NCBI GenBank assembly: GCA_963514005.1
Contig: OY740782.1
Span: 103,292,001-103,356,000, forward strand
DNA: 64,000 nt
Direction: 5' to 3'
DNA from: Raja brachyura
Taxonomy: Eukaryota
Of the stretch, positions 3,331-20,800 are shown piece by piece; position 1 is the first letter of the stretch, and every line of letters starts with the position of its first letter. The notes under the pieces were generated by a model. It made no database searches, had not been told where the DNA came from, and was given only the letters and a program-made list of their open reading frames with translations. A program made the translations under genes and the position numbers.

Positions 3331-3338
3331 GTCTCATA

Positions 3339-3901
3339 AGGGCCTGTCCCACTAGCGCGCGATTACACACGGCAAGCGCGACAAATTCGGATGCGGGGGT
3401 CGCGTGGGGTCGCGTGGGGGTCGGGCGATCCCGGTGCGAGTTAACGTGAAGTTCGTGCGAAGCCCGCGGGAAAGTTGCGCGTGACGTCATTTTTCATCAT
3501 ATAAACGTGGGCTGCAGGCTGCTTGTCTGTGATCACCATGGAACACACACAGAAACAGCTGCAGCTGGCATTTATCTGTCGCGGTCATGCGCGTCGCACG
3601 ACGTCGGGCAGTGACGTCATCACGCAACGCCACGCTGAAGACGCACGACGTCAAAACGTCAAGACGTTACTCACGTTCTCGATGCGATTCTGGCCGACAG
3701 GATTTTGCCGCGCGGAATTTTTGGACAGTGTCGGTTTTTGAAAGCTCCACGCGATGTCGAGACCAGCTCCACACAACTCCGCGCAACTCCACGAGACTCC
3801 GGCGATCGAAGTGGGACAGGGTCACGCGAGGCCGGGCGGCTAAAGCGACCACGGTAGGTCGCGCTTCCCGTGTGTAATCGCGCGCTAGTGGGACAGGCCC
3901 T
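3339..3901. mobile_element. Non-autonomous TIR DNA transposon (PIF/Harbinger-like MITE)
   Basis: Near-perfect ~45-bp TIR AGGGCCTGTCCCACTAGCGCGCGATTACACACGG...; CpG-rich; same terminus as the 33795-34486 element. Confidence 0.85.
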
Positions 3902-5105
3902 TGACTACAAGTGTCTTCTAAGAAAATACTTTCAAATTTGTAACTGCAAGTTTTTTGGCTTCCAATTCACAGGTTCATAAATCATAGGAACAGAATTAGG
4001 CCATTCGGACCATTCGGACCAACGAGTTGACTCCGCAATTCAATCCTAGCTGATCTATTTTTGTAACCTTTGACACCCTTCCTAATCAAGAAGCTGCCAA
4101 TCTCTGCTTTACAAATACCCCCAAACCCTTTCTTAAAAGTATAAAGTCTTAGCTTGGCTTTAAAGGCCCATTTCCTGGTGCGCTATCACTGGGTCGGTGT
4201 TGCAGACATCGGTATGCCCTGGTGATGCTGTCAATGACCTCTCCCACTGCTCAGCCACTTCATGCCACTGCAGGCCATGTCTAATACATCTCTGCAGGTC
4301 ATCCAGCAGTGCCCGATCGACATGATACCCCAGGTGCTTCAGGACCTCCTGTGGCCTACTCCATGGACACATTACCCCGTGAACGTGCCATTCCTTCGCC
4401 TCTCGCAGCCACCATTCAGCCTCTATGCAACAGGACACCTCTGGAGCTACTCCAAGCGGGTGGAAGGTGAGGCCATATACTGTTCACTGACATCAATCCT
4501 CTCCTCCGTCCGCTGGCACCTCTCCTGCCACCATCTTGATGCATGTATCAGTCTGGCAGAAATGTTTTAATCTTCCCTAGCAATGGGTGAGGTACCGGAA
4601 GACTGGAAGCTTGATAATATAGTGCCTTTATTTAAGCAGGGCTGCAAGGACACTATAGGGAACTACACAACAGCAAGTGGTACAGTGGTAGAGCTGCTGC
4701 CTCACAGCCTGTGTTGAGTTTGCACATTCTCCCTGTGACCACGTGGATTTCCTCCAGGTTCTTTGATTTTCCACACAGGTAGCAGTGGGTATGTGGAATG
4801 AGCAGGCAGAGGAAATGGTGAAAACAGATACGAGTAGAATGTTTAAAAGGATAGAAAATGTTTAGTGGGATATGGGCCAAATGCAACTAACTCAGGAAGA
4901 CCTTGAATTTCTATTTAACTTCAACATACCAGTACCATGAAAAATGAAATAATTTTCCATCCCCATATTTCAGGAAACATATTTAATAGATATCACATTC
5001 ATTCAAATTAACTGACTACAATATTACTGCAATATTGCCCGAGAAATATCTTGTATTTAGGCCTCCAGGTGGCAGCAAAGTCAGATCTCCATTGATGATC
5101 ATTAC

Positions 5106-5365: not shown

Positions 5366-6367
5366 AGCTATACTTGGAGTATTGTGTTCAGTTTTGCCCA
5401 CTGTAGGAAAGATGCCATTTGGCTGAAACTGGTGCAGAGGAGGTTTACATGGATGTTACTAGAACCCTAATCTCCTCTGCCTGCATGTGTACCATATCCC
5501 TCCATTCCCTGCATATCTATGTGCCTATCTAATAGCATCTTAAATGCCAGTAATGGATCAATGAAGTTTAAGGATATGCAAAAGCCCTGAACTGGAGCTG
5601 TGTGGAAGTATTGGAGGGACCAATATCTGAAAGATATTACCGTTATTGGAGGGGGCAAGATTTAGGAATATATTTATGACTAAAGATGGGAATTTGCTTT
5701 GAGATCTAGCTTTACGAGGAACTATATTATGCCTGGAAATGTGAGAAGCTGAGGGTCGTGCGAGGTAGTGGAGTTTGATCGAAATGCTAACACATGAATA
5801 GAAACTTGAAGATGTGAGCATAAGGTCAGATCTTGGTCAGAACAAATAATTATGCGGAAAGGAGAGATATCCTTGGAAACAGAAACAATTCATTCCATCA
5901 TGTTGTTCATGTAAAGGTTGGAATGGGGAACAAAAAAATTACGTAATATATTTAAATATTCCTTGTTAACAACACTGAGATTAAATTCATGCGCTTGCCA
6001 CACTTGGCAACACTAACCAGGTTGTTGGGTATCCATTTCCAGTTGGGGTACACTCAACTTTCTTGAAATCCCCAGCAAAATGGTCCTGGGTGATAGCATT
6101 GCCTCAAGGTTTATGCTGTTGTCATGATGTGAGGGTGGATGAAATCCTGTTGTGACAATAACTCCTTTGTCACTTGTACGCTTTGGATGTGTAGTTTCAT
6201 AATTGGTCATCATAGAATTTATTATCAGTGTCAAGATTCTCTTTGCACCATTTCCCAGTATTTATTATTCCTGTGTAACACTCGGATTTTAATTATTTAT
6301 CTTTAGCCTCCTCATCAGATGGTTTAACAACTTAAAAATGTATAGAACCATTTCTTAACCCAGAAAG

Positions 6368-7916
6368 TAACGATGTTACAAAACCTACCTTCAGTGGCGC
6401 TGTAGTTCTGCCACTGGCCGTGCGTGTGACTCTGGCACCTTTGAGCGGGGGGACGGGATTAAAATCCAGGTTTGTACTGCTTGTCGGAGGCGGATTTCCT
6501 CGAGCTGTTAGCTGATGAAGAAAATTCGATCAGCCATCCGTTCCCAGTTTTTTTTTAAATCGCTGGATAATTTAATAATTGGATTAAAATAAAAAGCGAC
6601 TTCTAACGTCCTCAACGCCTACAATGTGACGGATAGCAAGAACAGGACTAAACAAAGGGCAAGTCGTATATTTTACATATATTCATGCTGCTTGGGATGG
6701 CTTTAATCTAATTTTGCGTTGCGAAAATGTTATTTGGGCCCCATACGAACCGGCAGTGTCTTTCCTGCCGATATGGGGTTCAAATTTACCGCAACCGCAA
6801 TGTTCCAATCGATCGCATTCCAGAAACACCCACCCGCACGATGATTAAAATGTTCTCTTTTTTTGGACTATCAGGTCATTAGAGCATCTAAATTGTCTAT
6901 ATTTTGTGTTATCCATAGTCAATATTTTAATACTAAAAATACACAACTGTTTTAGCCACATGTATTGTGCAAAAAATAATAATTTTGATTATATTGAGTG
7001 GATGTTTCTAGATTAATTTATGGGAATTAAACATATTCCTTCCATCTGGCATATAAATTCATGACACTGAGATTCAAAAATCATGTTATATTGTGAATTC
7101 TTGTGTGAATGGGATTAGTTTGTTATTTGGATATTTAGGCTATTTAAAAATATATATCCTTTTCTTAATAAATGGAATCTACAGGACATTCTTAATGGGA
7201 AAGTAGAGGGCAGAAAGGCATGTCATGAGTGGTTTGAAGAGCAAAAACTTGTAGTTTACAATGCCAAAATTGAAAAGTTGATGAAAAACAAGGTGTACAG
7301 AGTTGGTTATTGGTTACAATCTGAGTCTGATGATGCTACTGATTATGATATGGCAATGTACCAGCTAGCAACTGATCTTCTCCATAAAGATTTGGTCTAT
7401 TGCTAGAAATTGTAATTTATTTACCTATCTGTTACGGACTTACAGCATATAATATAATAATACTAAAGTTCTGATCTTGAGAATATCATATTTTTGAATT
7501 TTCAAGGCAGTCTGGGTGTTTATTACTATTTCCGTCACAACGGTTAATTTTGTAATTAGCTACAATTAGTTAATTAGCTAATTATATGCTTTAATTTCAG
7601 GTCATACAAGTAAGATGTTTTATATTTGTTTCAGAATGCTTGAATCTATAATAACTGAATATTTCATCCAGTTCTCTTAATTTTTAAGAAAGTTATGGGC
7701 TTTTGACTGTCCTCAATCACAGCTTTTGTGCTAAGTCAATGGAAAAGGAATAGGGAACAAGATGCTAATTTCCGAGTATGAAAATGGCCATAACTTTTTT
7801 AATACTGAAGATATGAAAGTGAATTAGGTGTCAAATTAAACTTCCTTTTATGCTTTATCTGATGGGATAAATTGCAGACTTGACTTTTAAAATCTCAAAA
7901 TGTTGTAACATTGCTA
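6368..7916 (+). mobile_element. Non-autonomous DNA transposon (1549 bp) with 14-bp TIRs, 7-bp TSD and a coding remnant
   Basis: Left TAACGATGTTACAA and right TTGTAACATTGCTA (12/14 match); exact TSD CAGAAAG on both sides; open frame 7119-7406. Confidence 0.85.
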
Positions 7917-8100
7917 CAGAAAGTACAGGAGAGAGGACGGATGATGGGCCCACTTTAAATGCTGCTATCCACTTTATAGATATAAAATATTGTTTATGAG
8001 CAACCTGGCTCTAAATGTTTTATGCAGCATATATATCAAGCAGTCAATACCATGCTCCCATACACACTTGGGAGCACTAGCTTGTGGGCACTACCTAGCT

Positions 8101-11696: not shown

Positions 11697-11843
11697 TTAT
11701 TTGAAACAGACTGGGCCAATGTCCAAACCAAATTCTTGTTCTGGGCCACCAATATCCATAGGTGCAATGTCCATAAATGGCAAGCGAGATGTTTTCTGTG
11801 TTCTGTATTCAATGACTGTCTTACTCCATTCACCGGTATGTCT
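11697..11843 (-). CDS. COL1A2: COL1A2 exon 52 coding part (147 bp)
   Basis: [48 protein letters not shown]. Confidence 0.97.
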
Positions 11844-14800
11844 CTGTTAAAAGCCAGATTTAATAATGTTATTTTGTGGTAATGCATACATTTGGTAAAA
11901 TCCTAAACATGTAATCTAAAAATGATTTTAAATAAATAAAACAATTCTAAAGAGGGTTCATTTTTATTGTGGTTATTCGAGATTCTGGAGTTAACTATGT
12001 GCAACTTCTGGGCAGTTTTGAACAGACATCTGATCAAGGGCATAGAGATCAGCTGTTTGAGCTAAAGTTAAATGGGTGGGGGGGTTAACCTTCTTATTGC
12101 CCACTGCTTATTCCATTTAATCTATTGTTAACTCCAAATACATTCAAAGCAAGTTTTATTTGACAGAATACTTCTTAAGAAGAAGTTAGTTTAAATTACA
12201 TGGTTCACAATTCAATATATCTATATATATTTCCTGTGCTGTACTGTTCTATGTTCTAACATTTATATGGAACTTTAATATTTGCTATTTAAAATGCATG
12301 TCCAGAAATGACTGAAGATTATGTACATGTTGCAGATCTGGGAAATATTTGAACATATCTGTATTACTTTTTTAATGCTATGATTGTTGGAGGTAGCAGA
12401 TTCTTATAGGTTTTACTAATCTATATTACATCTAAATTTTGGTATAAGGATATGTTGCCTTCCGGGACACAATCAACATAATATAATATGACCCTTCTTA
12501 TTTAACTTTACTGTAGGATTCACTGCTGAAGCATTGAGAATAATTACCATGCTGATAGGTTAGAAACAATGTGGTGATGGGGAGAAAGTAAGGTTTTATC
12601 AAAAGTAAATAATTTAATGCAAAATTAATACTAAGTGCTTGATGGATGTAACATAATTTTGAAATATGGTTAAGATCAATAAAGACATGATTGTGGCATT
12701 TGGAGCTAAAGTTCCTTTATATAATTAAAGCGTTGAAAAGGAAAACAAAAACATAATAGATATACTATGGCAGAGTACAAAAGGCACCATATTTTGAGAA
12801 TCTTTTATAGGTATTAAGGCAGTGATACTAAAGACAAATTCAGCAGTAAACAGATCAGTGTTTAAAATATGCTCCTGTCGCACTTTTACGCATGCCTTAA
12901 AAATGTGCTTGGAGATAATCCAATTAATAACTGCAATGTTTTTACATAACGCATAATGAACACATTTAAGTATGGTTAGCTTTAAAAGAAACTACCATAA
13001 CTTACCGTGCATCCGTCTTCCAGAACGCTGTATGTGAATCTGCTGTTACCTTCAGCTCGGAGTTCAACATCATTGGAACCAAGAAGAATAACTGACTTTT
13101 TCAGGCTTCCGGTCTCCTCATCCATGTATGCTACGCTGTTCTTACAATGGTAGGTGATATTCTGGGAGGCTTCATTGGAGAGAAGGTGCAGGAATGTCAG
13201 CTGGGTTCCCATGACAACTGGAGTGATGTGCTCATCATTGTAAGCGAACTGGAATAAAGATATTCAAGTTAAGAAATCTATCTTGAACATTTTAAATGCA
13301 TTTTATTCTGCACTGACTTTATGGAAAGCTGCAAAATTATCTGTAACATTTTGCATCTGGGTTTCAGTTACCTGTACACCATCTTTAATAGTTTCACCAA
13401 ACCAAATGTGTTTCTGTTCTTGTTTCTTGTTATTCCACCAGTTCCTACGTTCAATGATGTCAGGGTTGGCATGTACACACGTCTCTCCAGATACAAAGTC
13501 GCAGTAAACTCTAATGGCATCCATGATGCATCCTTGGTTGGGATCGATCCAGTAGTAAGCTAAGGCAATACATTTATAGCATTAAATCAAACATTCTTGT
13601 TGGTGCAGCCACTCAAATCACACAAAGCCAAAGGAACATAAAAGCAGATGTATAAATCAAAATTACCTCAAACATTAAATTTGATTTGTAATACAAAAAT
13701 ATAATAGAATAAGATTGTAATATACACAATTTCCCCTTGTTATTGCAATGTGTGAAATTTATCTTTGCATTAATCAAGAATAAATACACAAATGGAGAGA
13801 AACGGTTTAGAGGTTTATTATGGAAGAAAGGCTGTCAAGTGGGATGAGATTAGATGGAGCATCTTCATTGGCATGGACGAGTTGAGCTGAAGGGCTTGTT
13901 GACTTAGAATATGTTTCATGTAGCATCCATTTCTTCAGTGCCACATCCTCAAATTTCAACCTTGCCCAAATTGGAACATTCTTAGGTGAAATCATACCAA
14001 ACACAAAACTGAAACAGGTATTTCCGCCTGAATGTTGGGAGCCACACAAAAGTCCCACAAATGGTAAAGAGAGTGTTTTAGCCTCTAATACACACTGGAG
14101 TTTGACTAACTTTTCCTTTATTTTTTTTAGGGCTCTAAACTAAATATAGACATGTATTGGTGCATCTAATGTAGGTATGGTACAATTTCTGGACATTTTG
14201 TTCCAGTTCCCTGCAAAACTAGCCGTGGTCTATAAATAAATATTTTATTTTCCTGTCTAATTTCCTTATTTCAATTTATAAGTGTTGGTAGACTCCCGAC
14301 ACCTTGCTTCATTGACTAATTTTCATATGACTGCATTCAAAGAGGAGAACAACTAAGCCATCAGAAGTTTAACTATTCCTCGGGAAAAAGATATCGCAGC
14401 ATAAGGAGCAGAACATCAAGGTTCTGCAACAGCTTCTTCCCACGAGCCATCACTCCTGAATGCCATGTAATGGGCTGCCACCATTGTCTATTTATCCTTT
14501 TCATCCATGCCTATCCTTCGGTTAATTTATTGTATTGCACAGGGAGCCAAATGCAACGTAATTTCGTTTTGGAACTGCATATATCAATGTGTTTCTAAAT
14601 GACAATAAAGTTTGTTTGACTTTTGACTATTCACCAGCGATCACCAGAGTCAGGAACTTAATTTCAACCAACTTTGCCCTTTTCTTCACCCTAGGTATTC
14701 ACTCAGACAGACTAGCAATTGTGTGTTATGAGCTTTGTGTTCAGCTACATGGCATCAGCAGTGATTTTTGAATTTGAAAGCTGCTAATTTTTTAATTTAA

Positions 14801-17800
14801 TTTAGTTTAGATATATAGTGTGGAAACAGGCATTCAGCCCACTGAGTTCCCAACGGACATCGAGCGTTTTAATCAAGTTTCTCATCCTACACACTAGGGG
14901 CAATTTACAGAAGCCAATTAACCTACAAACCTGTACGCCTTTGAGATACGGATGGAAACCGGAGCAACGGAGTAAACCCCGCAGGTCACAGGGAGAACGT
15001 ATAAACTCCAAACAGACAGCGTCCATAATCAGGATCAAACACGGGTCTCTGTGAGGCAGCAATTCTACTGCTGCGCCACTGTGCTGCCCAATGATATGAT
15101 TTTCTGCATGAACATACCTGACATCCATTCGGGATGACTGAGTCTCAGGTCGCGGCATGAACGGGCAGGGTTCTTCTTTGAGCCTTCGGGGCTGCGGATG
15201 TTCTCAATCTCTCTGGTCAAAACTTTCAGTTTGGCATCGACTTCAAGATCCTTCTCTCTTGCAGCTGGTTGATCAGCTCTGTATTCATCATAATAGTGGC
15301 TCACTTCATAGTGACCGCCAGCAGGGCCTGGGAAGCCAGGGATGCCAGGAGCACCTGGAGGACCCTAAGAAATGGCATGGTTCAAAGGTTATATCTATTT
15401 TCAGTTGCCTCCCATTATGCGACCATCACTTGCACACCATTGTCTGATTCCACCTCAGAGATCTTACGTAATTTTTGCTCTGCAGGGAAATGTTGCTAAC
15501 TTCATTGCTAACTGTCTAGGAAAAGAAAGTGTGAGACTCACTGAAATTCTTGTTAATTGCATATCTAATTCACAACAGGTTTTTATCAAAGATGGCTATC
15601 TAAGTGACCAAGTAACTGAAGCAGGGAGATTAATCTTCTGCACAAGGTTGATGAAAGCTTAGCCAACCTGCTTCATCTCAGAACTTATGTGCACAGGCAC
15701 ATAGGTGCAGGAGCAGGACCTTCAATCATTTGAGCCTACTCTGCCATTCAGTATGATCATGGCTGATTCTTTACACTCAATTCTATATTACCACTCATCC
15801 CAAACCATTTGATCTCTTTTGTGTGTTGAACCAGGTTGGCTAAGGAAAGCATATGTTGAGGTGTTAAGTTCAGGTTTTTGAAGACCATATTTGAAACAAA
15901 TTAGTAGGAGAAGTACCTAGCTCCTGAAGCCCACTTCACCATTTAAAAGACCATCACTGATTTTTCTTAAAACAACCAGTAAACATCATGGTTTCTATTC
16001 TAAGGGAATTGTAGTTTATTATCTGATCACATTATTCAGATTTCATTTCTCTTTTGAACTTCCTTCTTTTTCTAACAATGGTCAAAGTGACGTTCAGCTA
16101 ATATCAGGCAACTGAATCACTCTACCACAACCAGAGAGCAGTACTGAACTACTATCTACCTCTTTGATGACCCTCAGGCTATCCTTGATCAGACTTGGTT
16201 GGCTTTACCTTGCACTGAACATTATTCCCTTATGTATCTAAATACTGTAAATACATTGATTGTAATCGTATATTGACTTTCTGCTGACTGGATGGCATGC
16301 AACAAAAGCTTTTCACTGTACCTCGGTGCATCGGTATACGTGACAATAAACTAAAGTGATAACTGAACTGAGAAAGGGATTTGTGACTCATGGACCATGT
16401 GATCATTCTTCAACTGTGCGCCTGGGCAGGAGTTTAATAATAACTGTAGCGAAAGCACCTTGTTGCCAGTCATGCCCTTCATTACGCATATAGGTATCAT
16501 AGGAGAGGCTGCAGGTTCATTGCCTCAGAATCACTGGACCAGTGCAGCATTCTGGTGGAGTCAGTCACAGCTCCGTACACATCCCATTCCAGATACTTGA
16601 GCACAAATATCTCATGTGCAGTACAGCTGCACTGCTGAAGGTACTGATGTTTGGATCCATCTCGGCTGTTGCTTGGGCGCAACAGATCCCATAATATAAT
16701 TTTGAATAAAAGCAAAAGAATTAACCTGCCAACAGTTTGCCCACAACCAGTATCACTGAATTTAGATAATATAGCAAGTACTACATTGACACACTGTATG
16801 TGGAAAATCGTTGTCTGCAAACAAGCTGGTTCCTACCTTTATTATACAAAGTGACTGCACGTTATAAGTAGTTTTTCAGCTCTAAATCACTGTGGTATAT
16901 ATTGAATTTATGAAAGTATTCCCCAGCATATAAAAATATGAAAAAAAATGGTCCCGGTTCTAAACGTCAACTTACTTGGGGACCCATGTCACCATTGCGA
17001 CCTCGTTGACCAACAGGACCTATAGTACCAACGTGTCCGTAGGAACCATCTTTTCCAGGAGGACCAGCAGGACCAGAGGGACCCTGGAAGCAATGAGTGG
17101 AGGAGATTATTTTTCAACTGGTGTATTTCTTCAAACAACTTATAATTTGAATTATGAAACAATGGTTCTTTACGTACTCTTGGGCCACTTGGTCCAGCAG
17201 CACCATGGCCACCAGGTTCACCAGAAATACCCTGTCAAGGTAAGGAAATCAATGAGAAACACTTGTTATAAAACAAACAATGGAAGAAAGGTTGGAAGGG
17301 GGAGGGAGAAGGATCAAGTGTCAACACAACCACTTACAGAAACACCAGGAAGACCTTGCAGACCCCCGGGTCCCCTCAATCCTTTCAAGCCTCTGGCACC
17401 TGGGTCACCATGTTCACCCTTTTCTCCACGTGGACCTTGTGGACCCTACAATGTGTGGAATAAACACTTTTAATTGATGGTAACATGTGAACAAGGGACA
17501 AATAAAATTATAAAGAACTACCAATTTATTAGCAAACCAGATAGGCCTGCAACCTCTGGCCTTGAAGCTTTCAAGCTACTATTGGAGAAGAGTAGATAGA
17601 AAGGGTATGAGGCATCGACCCATGTGACGACAATTGAAACAATACTTCCCTACTGGCATTTCGTTGCCTGGAGCTTTTCTACCTTAAGCCCTTGGGTCTA
17701 AGGGAGATCGAGCAGGGAGAGCCAGTAACACGGTGTTTGTCTGTGATTGATTTAAAGATGCATCCTGAGTCCACGCTGGGCTTAGTCACTCATTCACAAT

Positions 17801-20800
17801 AGTTTTATGTTATCCCACTTTCCCATCCACTTTCTACACACCTCGGGCAATTTATCGAGGCCAATTAACCTGCAAAATCACACTTATTTTGAGCTTTTGT
17901 CGGAGGTAACCAGAGCACCTCGAGGAAACCCACAGTCACAGGGAGAACATGAAAACTCCACACAGACATCACCCGAGGTCAGGATCAAAGCTGCGGCACT
18001 GGCACTATAAGGCTGCATCTGTACCAGCCACATCTCTTTGCCACAGAAGGCTGTGGGGCATGTCAGTGGATATTTTTTTTAAGGCAGAGATAGATTCTTG
18101 ATTAATCCAGATGTCAATGGTTAAGGGGGCAAGGCAGGAGAATGAGGTTAGGTGGGAGAGATAGATCAGCTATGATCAAATGATGGAGTAGACTTGATGG
18201 GCCGATTAGCCTAATTCTACTCCTATCACATGACCGCCCATATAGGTGGGAGGGAGAGTTACTAATACTTATATCAGCACCAAGGCATTGGTGACCCTAC
18301 ACCTTAATCTAGATGTAAATATGTTCTGCCTTTCAGGGTGGGATCTGCAATTCTGGTGGTGGAGGATGATAATTCTGCCATCCTAGTGGAGTGGCTGATC
18401 CCAGAAATACGAGGAGAGATGCTGAAACCCAAGTCAGCCTAATAATGTGTAAACATGAACATTAATTGAGTTACGTGAAGATGTACTCACAGCAAGACCT
18501 CTTGGACCAATTGCACCTACATGGCCAACTGCACCAGCAACACCCTGGCACAAAAGAAGAGAGAGATTTACTTTCCCGTACAAGTCATATAATGAAATTC
18601 ATAAACAGGCCCTTCCTTTAAGAACTGAAAGTGCAAACGTACAGCCTCACCACGGTTGCCAGTCTTGCCCACTGGACCTGCGTGGCCGTGAGCACCGGGT
18701 TGTCCAACTGCACCAGGAGCGCCGGCCCTGCCACCTTCTCCACGCTCGCCCTGCATAACAGAAATAAAAGAGTTACTCCGGCATTTTGTGTCAACTAAAG
18801 AAAAATAATCTACTTAAACTGTTACAGAAACAATGTGACGTTAGGTCAACGAACAGTAGCTTTCTGAGTGTAGCCATTAAGACTGTACGAACCTTTGGCC
18901 CAGGGAATCCAGCACGGCCAGGAGAACCATCACTACCAGGGTTTCCCTGAAAAACAACAAGGAAAAAGAAAAGGTCACATGTACAATGTGCAGAATATGA
19001 TCTGCCGTTCTGAGATGTATGGTTATGGAGTTCCGGCGTTGGCAATAGTGAGATAGTGGTGCACTTACATCGCGGCCAGATTCACCAGGTCGACCAAGCA
19101 TACCAGCAGCACCAGCGGCACCAGCTGAACCCCGTGGACCGGGAGAACCTGCAGGACCCGTTGCACCAGGCATACCCTGGAAACAAAAAACAAAGACTTC
19201 AGTTTAAATCACCGAGGCATGACCTGAGGAGGTATTTATCTGACAGGCACACCAACAATTTAAAATTATAAGGCACATTCCAGCACAAACCAAAGCAGGG
19301 TTCCATACAGACTCTGCAGAGGTTATAATAGAAAGGGACTGAAAAACCAGTGAAATGCCACCTGCTGCTTTAAACAGGTTCCTATGGACTTCTCAGTACT
19401 TTGCCAGTGGAGTAATGGTGGATGACCAGTAGCTTCTCTGCGAAACATAACAACTATTATTTCTTGAAATTATGTTTATTTTTTTCATTTTCCCATCCAT
19501 GGGACAAGGACATTGATATAAACACTGTAATTTGTTGTCCATGTCTAATTGCTCCTAGACTGGGGTCACTTGCAAGCCCTGAATGTAAGGATAGCACAAT
19601 TCCTTCCCCGAAGAGCATTGGTAAACCAGATCAGCTGATTATCTGCTAGTTTCCTGCTCCTTGTTACAAAGATTACTTTTATTTGCAGATTAATTCTATG
19701 ATTTCAATTTAAATTCACAGCTGGCTTGCTGGGATCAAAGATATGTCTCTTGATCAACATTCAAGCCTTTTAGCTTAACCATTATATCACCACACTCCTT
19801 ATTATATTGAAAGCTGCAAAAATATTCTTTCCTGGTGAAAAATACTATTGAACTCAAAATCCCCTGTATTTGCTAAATTACAGAGTACTGTATAACTTCA
19901 AATGTTACCCGAAGTGGGAAGTTTCTAAATACCATGTCCTGACATTATTACTGACCAATACATTCATGGCGCAGGTCTATATTCCTGGGTAATCCATACA
20001 TCCTTCGATACCCTTGTCTAACAATTTATTAATCTCAATTTACGATAATGCTCAAAAAGTGATTTTTTTTTTGCAATGATAATTCCAATAGGTTGCAATC
20101 TCAGGGAAAAGAAAGATTTCCTCAGCTCAGTTCTTATTACTTGGCTGCTTGCATGAAATTATGTACCGAGGTTCAGACTCTCTGACTGAAAGAAAAAGCT
20201 GCCTGCACTTTCTCTTCAATTCCTGGGAGAATTTTGCTTCAACAAGATCATCTTTAAACTTTTAAACGTGAATGAGCATCGATCTAGTGCATTCATTTCA
20301 CTTCACAGAGCTCCCTCATCCTAGAATCAGTCTATAATGGTTAGTGCAAATCATTATTCTGTGGTTCAGAGATTGATATGTTATCACCAATACTGTATGT
20401 AGAATAGCAACAAGCTTTTCTTCCACTTCTAATTTAATCCCTTTTAAATAAAGATAAATTTGCTGTTTGTGTTCCTAATTGTTTCCTTCATGTCAATTAG
20501 CTTCTTGCCATCTGCAAAAAAAAAACTGACTTTACTATTCCTCCTAGCAAAATGAATAACATCTTATTTCCTCACATTATACTCACTCTGACCACTGACA
20601 TAACTTACTTACTGCAGATTTTGCATTCCCATCATTGTTCATTTCACATTTAGCTTTGTATTTAGCATTGTAACTGGCCTCTCATTAAATGGAACAGTAT
20701 AGCACAGGTACAGCCCCTTCAGCCCACAATGTCCATGCCGAACATGATGCCAAGATAAACTAATCACATTTGCCTGCACCCTATACATATCTCTCCATTC

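What the first reader, a model, noticed from the sequence alone, without database searches (positions are those of the whole stretch)
7119..7406. Spindlin/Tudor-like coding remnant carried inside a DNA transposon
Seen: a stop-free plus-strand frame, missed by the ORF track for lack of an early start codon, ends LQDILNGKVEGRKACHEWFEEQKLVVYNAKIEKLMKNKVYRVGYWLQSESDDATDYDMAMYQLATDLLHKDLVYC*. Known, from my recollection of SPIN1 repeat 2 (GKAVEHMF...WRGMV...FYITY...MYQLLDDYKEGDL): the Spin/Ssty Tudor-like repeat has the same motif order, and MYQLATDLLHKDL versus MYQLLDDYKEGDL is striking. Aromatic residues fall near the expected methyl-lysine cage positions. Inference: this is the C-terminus of a transposon protein with a histone-methyl reader domain, which could direct insertion to marked chromatin or link this transposon family to the origin of vertebrate spindlins.
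Basis: partly seen in the sequence, partly recalled or inferred. Interest (0 to 1): 0.75.

Follow-up and report, generated by a model that had tools for sequence, protein, structure and literature searches.

The report
Dead transposon keeps spindlin-like reader tail
This is the leftover tail of a jumping-gene enzyme in a cartilaginous fish; intact young copies in the same genome end in a small domain shaped like the histone-mark reader Spindlin, so the enzyme may read chromatin when it chooses where to land, though this copy itself is dead.

Summary
The peptide is real. It is the last 76 codons of a 978-aa DDE transposase, carried passively in a 1,549-bp non-autonomous deletion derivative (6368-7916; TAG...CTA ends, 7-bp target duplication). 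The same 2.7-Gb genome holds young 4.26-kb copies with the whole frame intact. The enzyme folds like the hAT transposase Hermes (Z 17). Its C-terminal domain folds as a Tudor barrel whose best matches are Spindlin repeat 2 (Z up to 9.0, against 7.5 for other Tudors). Three of four methyl-lysine cage aromatics and two acidic H3-binding residues are conserved in relatives from Hydra to echinoderms. It is not a Pfam Spin-Ssty member, and the 'MYQL' match is mostly chance (2 of 191 relatives). In the non-autonomous copies the frame decays neutrally (pN/pS 0.90), and commoner derivatives lack it. Histone binding, targeted insertion and a transposon origin of spindlins are untested; insertion sites show no CpG-island bias. 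I found no printed report of a Tudor-bearing DNA transposase, but this scan noted the same module three times before on other genomes. What this locus adds is an intact, recently active vertebrate copy that can be tested.

The parts
6361..6367 (.). left 7-bp target-site duplication (CAGAAAG)
   Evidence: 7 bp is the family length (12 of 14 long copies have a perfect 7-bp duplication)
6368..6381 (+). left terminal inverted repeat, 14 bp (family starts TAG; this copy has TAA)
6368..7176 (+).
7176..7177 (+). junction of a ~2.9-kb internal deletion that removed the ATG and about 902 codons of the transposase; the same junction is seen in 21 of 27 copies printed (30 examined)
7177..7406 (+). remnant of the transposase's C-terminal spindlin-type Tudor domain (residues ~903-978) and its stop; this copy has a 3-bp deletion around the conserved Tyr953
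7407..7902 (+). 3' non-coding arm; 7177-7916 is 91% identical to autonomous copies
7903..7916 (-). right terminal inverted repeat, 14 bp, ends ...CTA
7917..7923 (.). right 7-bp target-site duplication (CAGAAAG)

Best explanation
The locus is a dead non-autonomous copy of a hAT-like cut-and-paste transposon. Shown: the parent is a 4.26-kb element with one 978-aa frame (helical N-domain, coiled coil, RNase H-like DDE core with a helical insertion and CxxH motif, long helix, C-terminal Tudor domain). A founder copy lost the middle 2.9 kb, was spread in trans, and carries the last 76 codons as a passenger. Shown by prediction: the C-terminal domain is a Tudor barrel closest to Spindlin repeat 2 and keeps cage and acidic residues across animal phyla. 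Inferred, not shown: in the intact enzyme this domain binds a methylated lysine or arginine, most likely on a histone tail, and tethers the transposase-DNA complex to nucleosomes, biasing or easing insertion. Confidence is about 0.95 for the anatomy, 0.9 for homology with spindlin-type Tudors, 0.55 for methyl-lysine/arginine binding and 0.35 for target-site steering.
For: Intact frames: 4 of 14 long copies fetched have the complete frame to its normal stop; eight copies are 98.9-99.8% identical to L061. Core: Hermes is the top match, Foldseek E 1.1e-6, Z 17.1, rmsd 4.2 over 345 residues, next 10.1; D429/D506/E784 kept in 85, 86 and 87 of 87 rows, C531/H534 in 87 of 87. Domain: pLDDT 96.5; the top 24 entries of the second-look alignment are all spindlins at repeat 2, Z 7.7-9.0, rmsd 1.8-2.8 over 63-66 residues; profile-profile score 41.6 against repeat 1 and 29.4 against repeat 2, while 100 column-shuffled repeat-2 profiles reach at most 17.8; a repeat-1 HMM gives >=8 bits to 112 of 191 domains and 0 of 191 reversed ones. 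Cage positions equal to SPIN1 F141/W151/Y170 are aromatic in 181, 185 and 188 of 191; D184 and D189 equivalents are acidic in 181 and 174; median net charge -5 (residue roles from passages of PMC3967050). 87 of 106 relatives that reach the catalytic Glu carry the domain; core and domain identities co-vary (rho 0.63). Purifying selection between master lineages: pS 0.136, pN 0.037, p=0.02. Neutral decay in non-autonomous copies: pN/pS 0.90, 13 of 28 frameshifted, 7 stops.
Against: No Foldseek match reaches E<=0.001 for the domain (best 0.014). In the unbiased wide search Spindlin-4 (Z 7.5) ties with the plant RDM15 Tudor (7.3). Profile-to-sequence hits on spindlins are weak (best E 0.1). The fourth cage residue is ambiguous (Y953 or F959), and the E142 equivalent is acidic in only 4 of 191, though the next position is in 161. 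Flanks of 63 insertions are not richer in CpG islands than random DNA (3 of 63 against 32 of 560; o/e p=0.65); only the 16 long copies lean higher (p=0.04, uncorrected). 19 of 106 relatives lack the domain (some may be truncated gene models). The Tn7 TnsB SH3 barrel scores Z 7.1. The 191 rows were picked by a model of the domain itself, which inflates conservation; the set found with the core-dominated query agrees (W920 83 of 87, Y946 81 of 87, D969 81 of 87) but is not fully independent.
Confidence: 0.55

Rival explanations
1. The domain is a spindlin-type Tudor used for protein contact, not for reading histones: it binds a methylated or unmethylated host factor (silencing, piRNA or repair machinery) or another transposase subunit, as SPIN1 repeat 3 binds SPOCD1.
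For: SPIN1's third repeat mediates protein contacts (passage of PMC11499256); an extra conserved Trp (W947, 180 of 191) has no spindlin counterpart; no CpG-island bias.
Against: The match is to the cage-bearing repeats 1 and 2, not repeat 3 (probability 0.17 for repeat 3); cage aromatics and acidic H3-contact positions are conserved.
Confidence: 0.25
2. The domain is an SH3/Tudor-like DNA-binding module that grips transposon ends or target DNA, like the Tn7 TnsB barrel or retroviral integrase C-terminal domains (DNA binding by these is recalled).
For: Tn7 TnsB residues 1-57 match at Z 7.1, rmsd 2.2; a lysine-rich hairpin lies in the barrel.
Against: Median net charge is -5; identity to TnsB is 10% against 15-21% to spindlins, with lower Z; the aromatic pocket is conserved.
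Confidence: 0.12
3. The remnant is kept in non-autonomous copies because it makes a small free Tudor protein that regulates the transposase or serves the host.
For: Thousands of candidate copies keep these codons; the deletion breakpoint falls at the domain's start; natural in-frame N-terminus+Tudor deletion proteins exist elsewhere (P0002, P0046, P0048).
Against: pN/pS 0.90, 13 of 28 frameshifted, 7 stops; the deletion removed the ATG; 4 of 4 two-ended family copies met in 400 kb of random DNA lack the domain entirely.
Confidence: 0.04

Closest known systems
Hermes and the hAT superfamily (PDB 8edg, 6dwz, 4d1q, 2bw3)
   Same: RNase H-like DDE core with large helical insertion, CxxH motif, short TIRs, 4.26-kb single-frame element
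   Different: 7-bp not 8-bp duplications; no BED finger or hAT dimerisation Pfam hit, indeed no transposase Pfam at all; long N-terminal coiled coil; C-terminal Tudor domain; 10-12% identity. Repbase's hATw group (7-bp TSD) is my recalled label and could not be checked.
Spindlin-1 to -4, Spin/Ssty repeat 2 (H3K4me3 reader; PDB 4mzg, 7e9m; PMC3967050)
   Same: Barrel plus C-terminal helix and last strand superimpose at about 2.2 A over 66 residues; three cage aromatics and the D184/D189 positions are kept
   Different: One repeat on a transposase, not three in a free protein; 15-21% identity; a longer loop after the third strand; below every Pfam Spin-Ssty threshold; binding untested
PTM/DIR17-like and RDM15 Tudor domains (PF21743; PDB 7de9), BAHCC1 Tudor (8ye8)
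   Same: Same barrel, Z 7.3-7.5; weak Pfam hits in relatives (best E 2.7e-5, under the cut-off); tie with Spin-Ssty in the Atlas (0.88 each)
   Different: Shorter match (57-58 residues); found mostly in plants and algae by the Atlas labels; no host gene passes the PF21743 cut-off
Gypsy-10_Ec32 of Ectocarpus and chromodomain integrases (PMC12477816)
   Same: Mobile-element enzyme with a C-terminal Royal-family reader; the authors call it the first reported TE with a Tudor domain (passage)
   Different: LTR retrotransposon of brown algae; unrelated enzyme; no spindlin link in the passages read

Membership tests
hAT superfamily | DDE RNase H-like core with helical insertion, Hermes-like fold | tested here: met
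   Hermes Z 17.1 against 10.1 next and 8.3 for P element; Foldseek E 1.1e-6; D429/D506/E784
hAT superfamily | C/DxxH motif between second D and E (shared with P, MuDR, Kolobok, Dada; passage of PMC9587614) | tested here: met
   C531 and H534 in 87 of 87 rows
hAT superfamily | 2.5-5 kb element with 10-25-bp TIRs (passage of PMC3942097) | tested here: met
   4.26 kb, 14-bp TIRs
hAT superfamily (canonical Ac, Buster, Tip groups) | 8-bp target-site duplication (passage of PMC3942097) | tested here: not met
   7 bp: 40 of 47 end pairings match at >=6 of 7 (a few are one copy read twice); one 8-bp case. Repbase does hold hAT entries with 7-bp TSD (passage of PMC4455052). Filed as hAT-like.
hAT superfamily (canonical groups) | BED zinc finger and hAT dimerisation domain recognised by Pfam | tested here: not met
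   no such hit at E<=1 for the 978-aa protein or P0243
hATw group of Repbase/Dfam (recalled) | sequence similarity to hATw reference transposases | not testable with these tools
   no Repbase or Dfam here; three searches naming hATw found no definition in their listings or in the three papers checked
Spin/Ssty (spindlin) | Pfam PF02513 above its cut-off | tested here: not met
   no hit for the peptide, 34 relatives or the 79-aa intact domain, and none among the 25 of 54 families shown for 80 aligned members; the family search of the genome returned host spindlin exons and no element copy
Spin/Ssty (spindlin) | Tudor-like barrel with the repeat-2 helix and extra strand | tested here: met
   predicted model, Z 9.0, rmsd 2.2 over 66 of 76 residues
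Spin/Ssty (spindlin) | four-residue aromatic cage (F141, W151, Y170, Y177) | tested here: inconclusive
Spin/Ssty (spindlin) | three tandem repeats in a free protein | tested here: not met
   single C-terminal copy on a transposase; no true double domain among the proteins then held
Spin/Ssty (spindlin) | binds H3K4me3 or other methylated histone marks | not testable with these tools
   needs a binding assay; the complex predictor was unavailable and cannot model the methyl mark

The most novel reading that the evidence does not exclude
This transposase family carries the ancestor of the vertebrate Spin/Ssty repeat. An early vertebrate domesticated the C-terminal reader and triplicated it into Spindlin, which now helps the piRNA pathway find young transposons. 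The transposase itself would be a cut-and-paste enzyme that steers insertion by reading methylated histones. The domain is spread over cnidarian, mollusc, priapulid and echinoderm elements, whereas spindlins are described as vertebrate proteins; but direction was not tested, and PTM/DIR17-type Tudors are about as close.
Probability: 0.18. Interest if true: 0.85.

Novelty: new variant of a known kind. Interest (0 to 1): 0.56.

Why it matters
Histone-reader domains are known on retrotransposon integrases, and a 2025 paper calls a brown-algal Gypsy the first TE with a Tudor domain. A widespread animal cut-and-paste family with a spindlin-type reader would extend that to DNA transposons and offer a natural chromatin-guided integrase. 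This genome supplies intact copies over 99% identical to each other, so binding and insertion bias can be tested directly with a vertebrate enzyme. It also gives a concrete candidate for the source of the spindlin repeat. The window copy itself is an ordinary dead element, and the scan has met the module before.

Tried and rejected
A 9-bp duplication seen in the window is 7 bp plus a chance TA, so Academ- or MuDR-like lengths were dropped. My first idea that the peptide is a spliced last exon was wrong: the AG before 'ATG TCT' is the acceptor upstream of the start codon, and the frame has no intron. Single-sequence searches of Pfam and PDB found nothing useful; the full-length profile hit only coiled coils. 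Five of the 126 hits (P0025, P0066, P0071, P0120, P0123) were repeat artefacts and were dropped before counts. Copies picked by protein score give pN/pS 0.31, a selection artefact; I used copies picked by 3' non-coding DNA. Expression: no RNA holder listed; contigs of four runs were uninformative. Complex prediction with the H3 tail was not available. Atlas scores for the domain are all under 0.9, leads only. A search for longer proteins with the domain returned 7, all transposase-sized, six already held; weak. The spindlin search listed 120 of 354 hits, all named ones vertebrate, so invertebrate spindlins were not excluded. The tree is the quick one, unrooted, and a few rows lack a true Tudor; no transfer or order of events is claimed. 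Print searches: (listings and abstract starts only) showed no Tudor- or spindlin-bearing DNA transposase. Five papers asked for by id from recall were not held; Repbase Reports and all supplements were not seen and may already describe the family.

Full report
Observation. The frame 7119-7406 translates as stated. A frame this long arises in 68 of 500 shuffles of the element, so the case rests on homology, which is strong: 126 proteins at E<=0.001 among 1.84 billion. After dropping five repeat artefacts, the match lies within 10 residues of the C-terminus in 110 of 121. Of the 32 that are 200 aa or longer, 31 also carry the transposase core or the helix before the domain.

The element. The host is a 2.7-Gb animal genome; its spindlin is 97% identical to shark and electric-ray spindlins, so a cartilaginous fish is inferred. 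The peptide sits in a 1,549-bp element (6368-7916) with 14-bp inverted ends and a 7-bp duplication, about 3.8 kb downstream of a fibrillar collagen gene. The genome search scored 150 of 2,646 candidates by protein and 40 of 4,061 by 3' DNA; these are lower bounds. Across fetched copies, 40 of 47 end pairings match at 6 or 7 of 7 bases (a few are one copy read twice), with a loose palindromic preference C-W-W-W-W-W-G.

The parent. A search with the core of the closest named relative (chiton protein P0243) gave 94 matches. Fourteen were fetched with flanks: most are about 4.26 kb, and four carry a complete 978-codon frame ending in this domain (one of the four, L063, has a change in the CxxH histidine). 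Eight are 98.9-99.8% identical to L061, so the family moved recently. The window copy matches the parent's last 743 bases at 91% and its first 638 at 74%; about 2.9 kb with the start codon is gone, and 21 of 27 copies printed (30 examined) share that junction.

Is the remnant selected? No. In 28 of 30 copies picked by non-coding DNA (two had too little cover), pN/pS is 0.90, 13 are frameshifted and 7 stops occur. The window copy has 6 replacement and 1 silent change from the group majority and a 3-bp deletion around Tyr953. In 400 kb of random DNA all four two-ended family copies were a ~1-kb form without the domain. By contrast the domain was under purifying selection while it was part of an active enzyme (pS 0.136, pN 0.037, p=0.02).

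The enzyme. No Pfam family recognises it. The AlphaFold2 model (pLDDT 85) matches Hermes best (E 1.1e-6; Z 17.1 over 345 residues, next 10.1, P element 8.3). D429, D506, E784 and the C531-x-x-H534 motif are nearly or fully invariant in 87 rows. It works like a hAT transposase but makes 7-bp duplications and lacks the canonical Pfam domains, so I call it hAT-like. The label hATw is recalled and unverified. Named relatives come from Hydra, molluscs, echinoderms, a priapulid, a sea spider, an annelid, a brachiopod, a sponge and a medaka. Of 106 relatives that reach the catalytic Glu, 87 carry the domain; the medaka, sponge and annelid entries are among the 19 that do not. Core and domain identities co-vary (rho 0.63, p=0.001, 83 of 87 rows), as expected for one old fusion.

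The domain. It folds confidently (pLDDT 96.5). Foldseek ranks Spindlin1 first but not significantly (E 0.014, TM 0.66). The unbiased wide search gives Spindlin-4 Z 7.5 and RDM15 7.3, a tie. Re-aligning Foldseek's top chains puts 24 spindlin entries first, all at repeat 2, Z 7.7-9.0, ahead of BAHCC1 7.5, RDM15 7.3 and Tn7 TnsB 7.1. In sequence, 15 of 20 weak PDB hits are spindlins (best E 0.1); profile-profile scores are 41.6 (repeat 1), 29.4 (repeat 2) and 8.6 (repeat 3) against at most 17.8 for 100 shuffles of repeat 2. W920, Y929 and Y946 align with SPIN1 F141, W151 and Y170, and D969 and D974 with D184 and D189; passages of PMC3967050 give these as the K4me3 cage and the H3 A1-R2 anchors. 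The fourth cage residue is unsettled and E142 has no exact counterpart. MYQL is exact in 2 of 191 rows; the shared signal is the Leu, the two Asp and the final Leu after it. Pfam Spin-Ssty is never hit.

Mechanism. Most likely the intact enzyme uses this acidic, caged barrel at the end of a long helix to hold a methylated lysine or arginine on chromatin while it captures a target. That step is inference. A crude test for promoter targeting was negative: 3 of 63 flanks look like CpG islands against 32 of 560 random windows; only the 16 long copies lean higher (p=0.04, uncorrected). Selection after insertion blurs this test, and the mark need not be H3K4me3. Rivals are a protein-contact role (0.25), DNA binding (0.12) and a free regulator protein from the remnant (0.04).

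Origin of spindlins. The host has two ordinary three-repeat spindlin genes elsewhere. Spindlins are described as vertebrate proteins, and SPIN1 partners SPOCD1 in the piRNA pathway (passages of PMC3967050 and PMC11499256), while this domain is spread over invertebrate elements, which fits domestication. But with Spin-Ssty clusters left out, the nearest Atlas neighbours of host repeat 2 are PTM/DIR17 Tudors (0.91), ahead of an unnamed 75-aa cluster (0.88) of the same size as the top hit for the transposase domain. Direction was not tested; I give it 0.18.

Novelty. Ten paper searches (listings only) showed no DNA transposase with a Tudor or spindlin domain. PMC12477816 calls a brown-algal Gypsy the first TE with a Tudor domain (passages). 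I also read passages only of PMC12905397, PMC4455052, PMC8721813, PMC12859917, PMC3942097 and PMC9587614. Repbase Reports and supplements were not visible. This scan reported the same module three times on other genomes; I had reached the reading before seeing those notes, and they are not independent support. Verdict: observation confirmed, interpretation partly supported, new variant of a known kind, interest 0.56.

Noticed in passing
window ~11707-19270, minus strand: 3' part of a fibrillar collagen gene: Gly-X-Y exons and four C-propeptide exons (COLFI hits E 1e-14 to 2e-33 for three; last exon found by motif).
   Followed up: partly
window 3338-3902: A 565-bp MITE-like element with 45-nt, 98% complementary inverted ends; family not identified.
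   Followed up: no
L137, L140, L156, L157: A ~1-kb derivative of the same family without the Tudor codons; four copies in 400 kb of random DNA suggest tens of thousands per genome, a rough estimate.
   Followed up: partly
L017, L025: A second deletion derivative keeps the start codon and about 17 codons, joined out of frame to the last ~95 codons.
   Followed up: partly
proteins P0002, P0046, P0048, P0083: Predicted proteins from other genomes that join the transposase's N-terminal part in frame to the Tudor domain without the catalytic core; possible repressor-like products or just gene-model artefacts.
   Followed up: no
L061:2910-5846 against P0243 and P0162: The fish transposase core is 67% identical to a chiton protein and 76% to an unnamed one, and host phyla are mixed on the quick tree; horizontal transfer is possible but untested.
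   Followed up: partly
L061, just before 2910: A splice-acceptor-like AG directly precedes the start codon and a donor-like site lies about 530 bases upstream, suggesting a 5' UTR intron; not confirmed by RNA.
   Followed up: no
L105-L110 (contigs C3 and C32): Two host spindlin genes, each with three Spin-Ssty exons; a seventh hit (L111) has a stop and no similarity to the element.
   Followed up: partly
L011, L012, L064: Copies of this family lie inside or right beside one another at three of the fetched loci.
   Followed up: no
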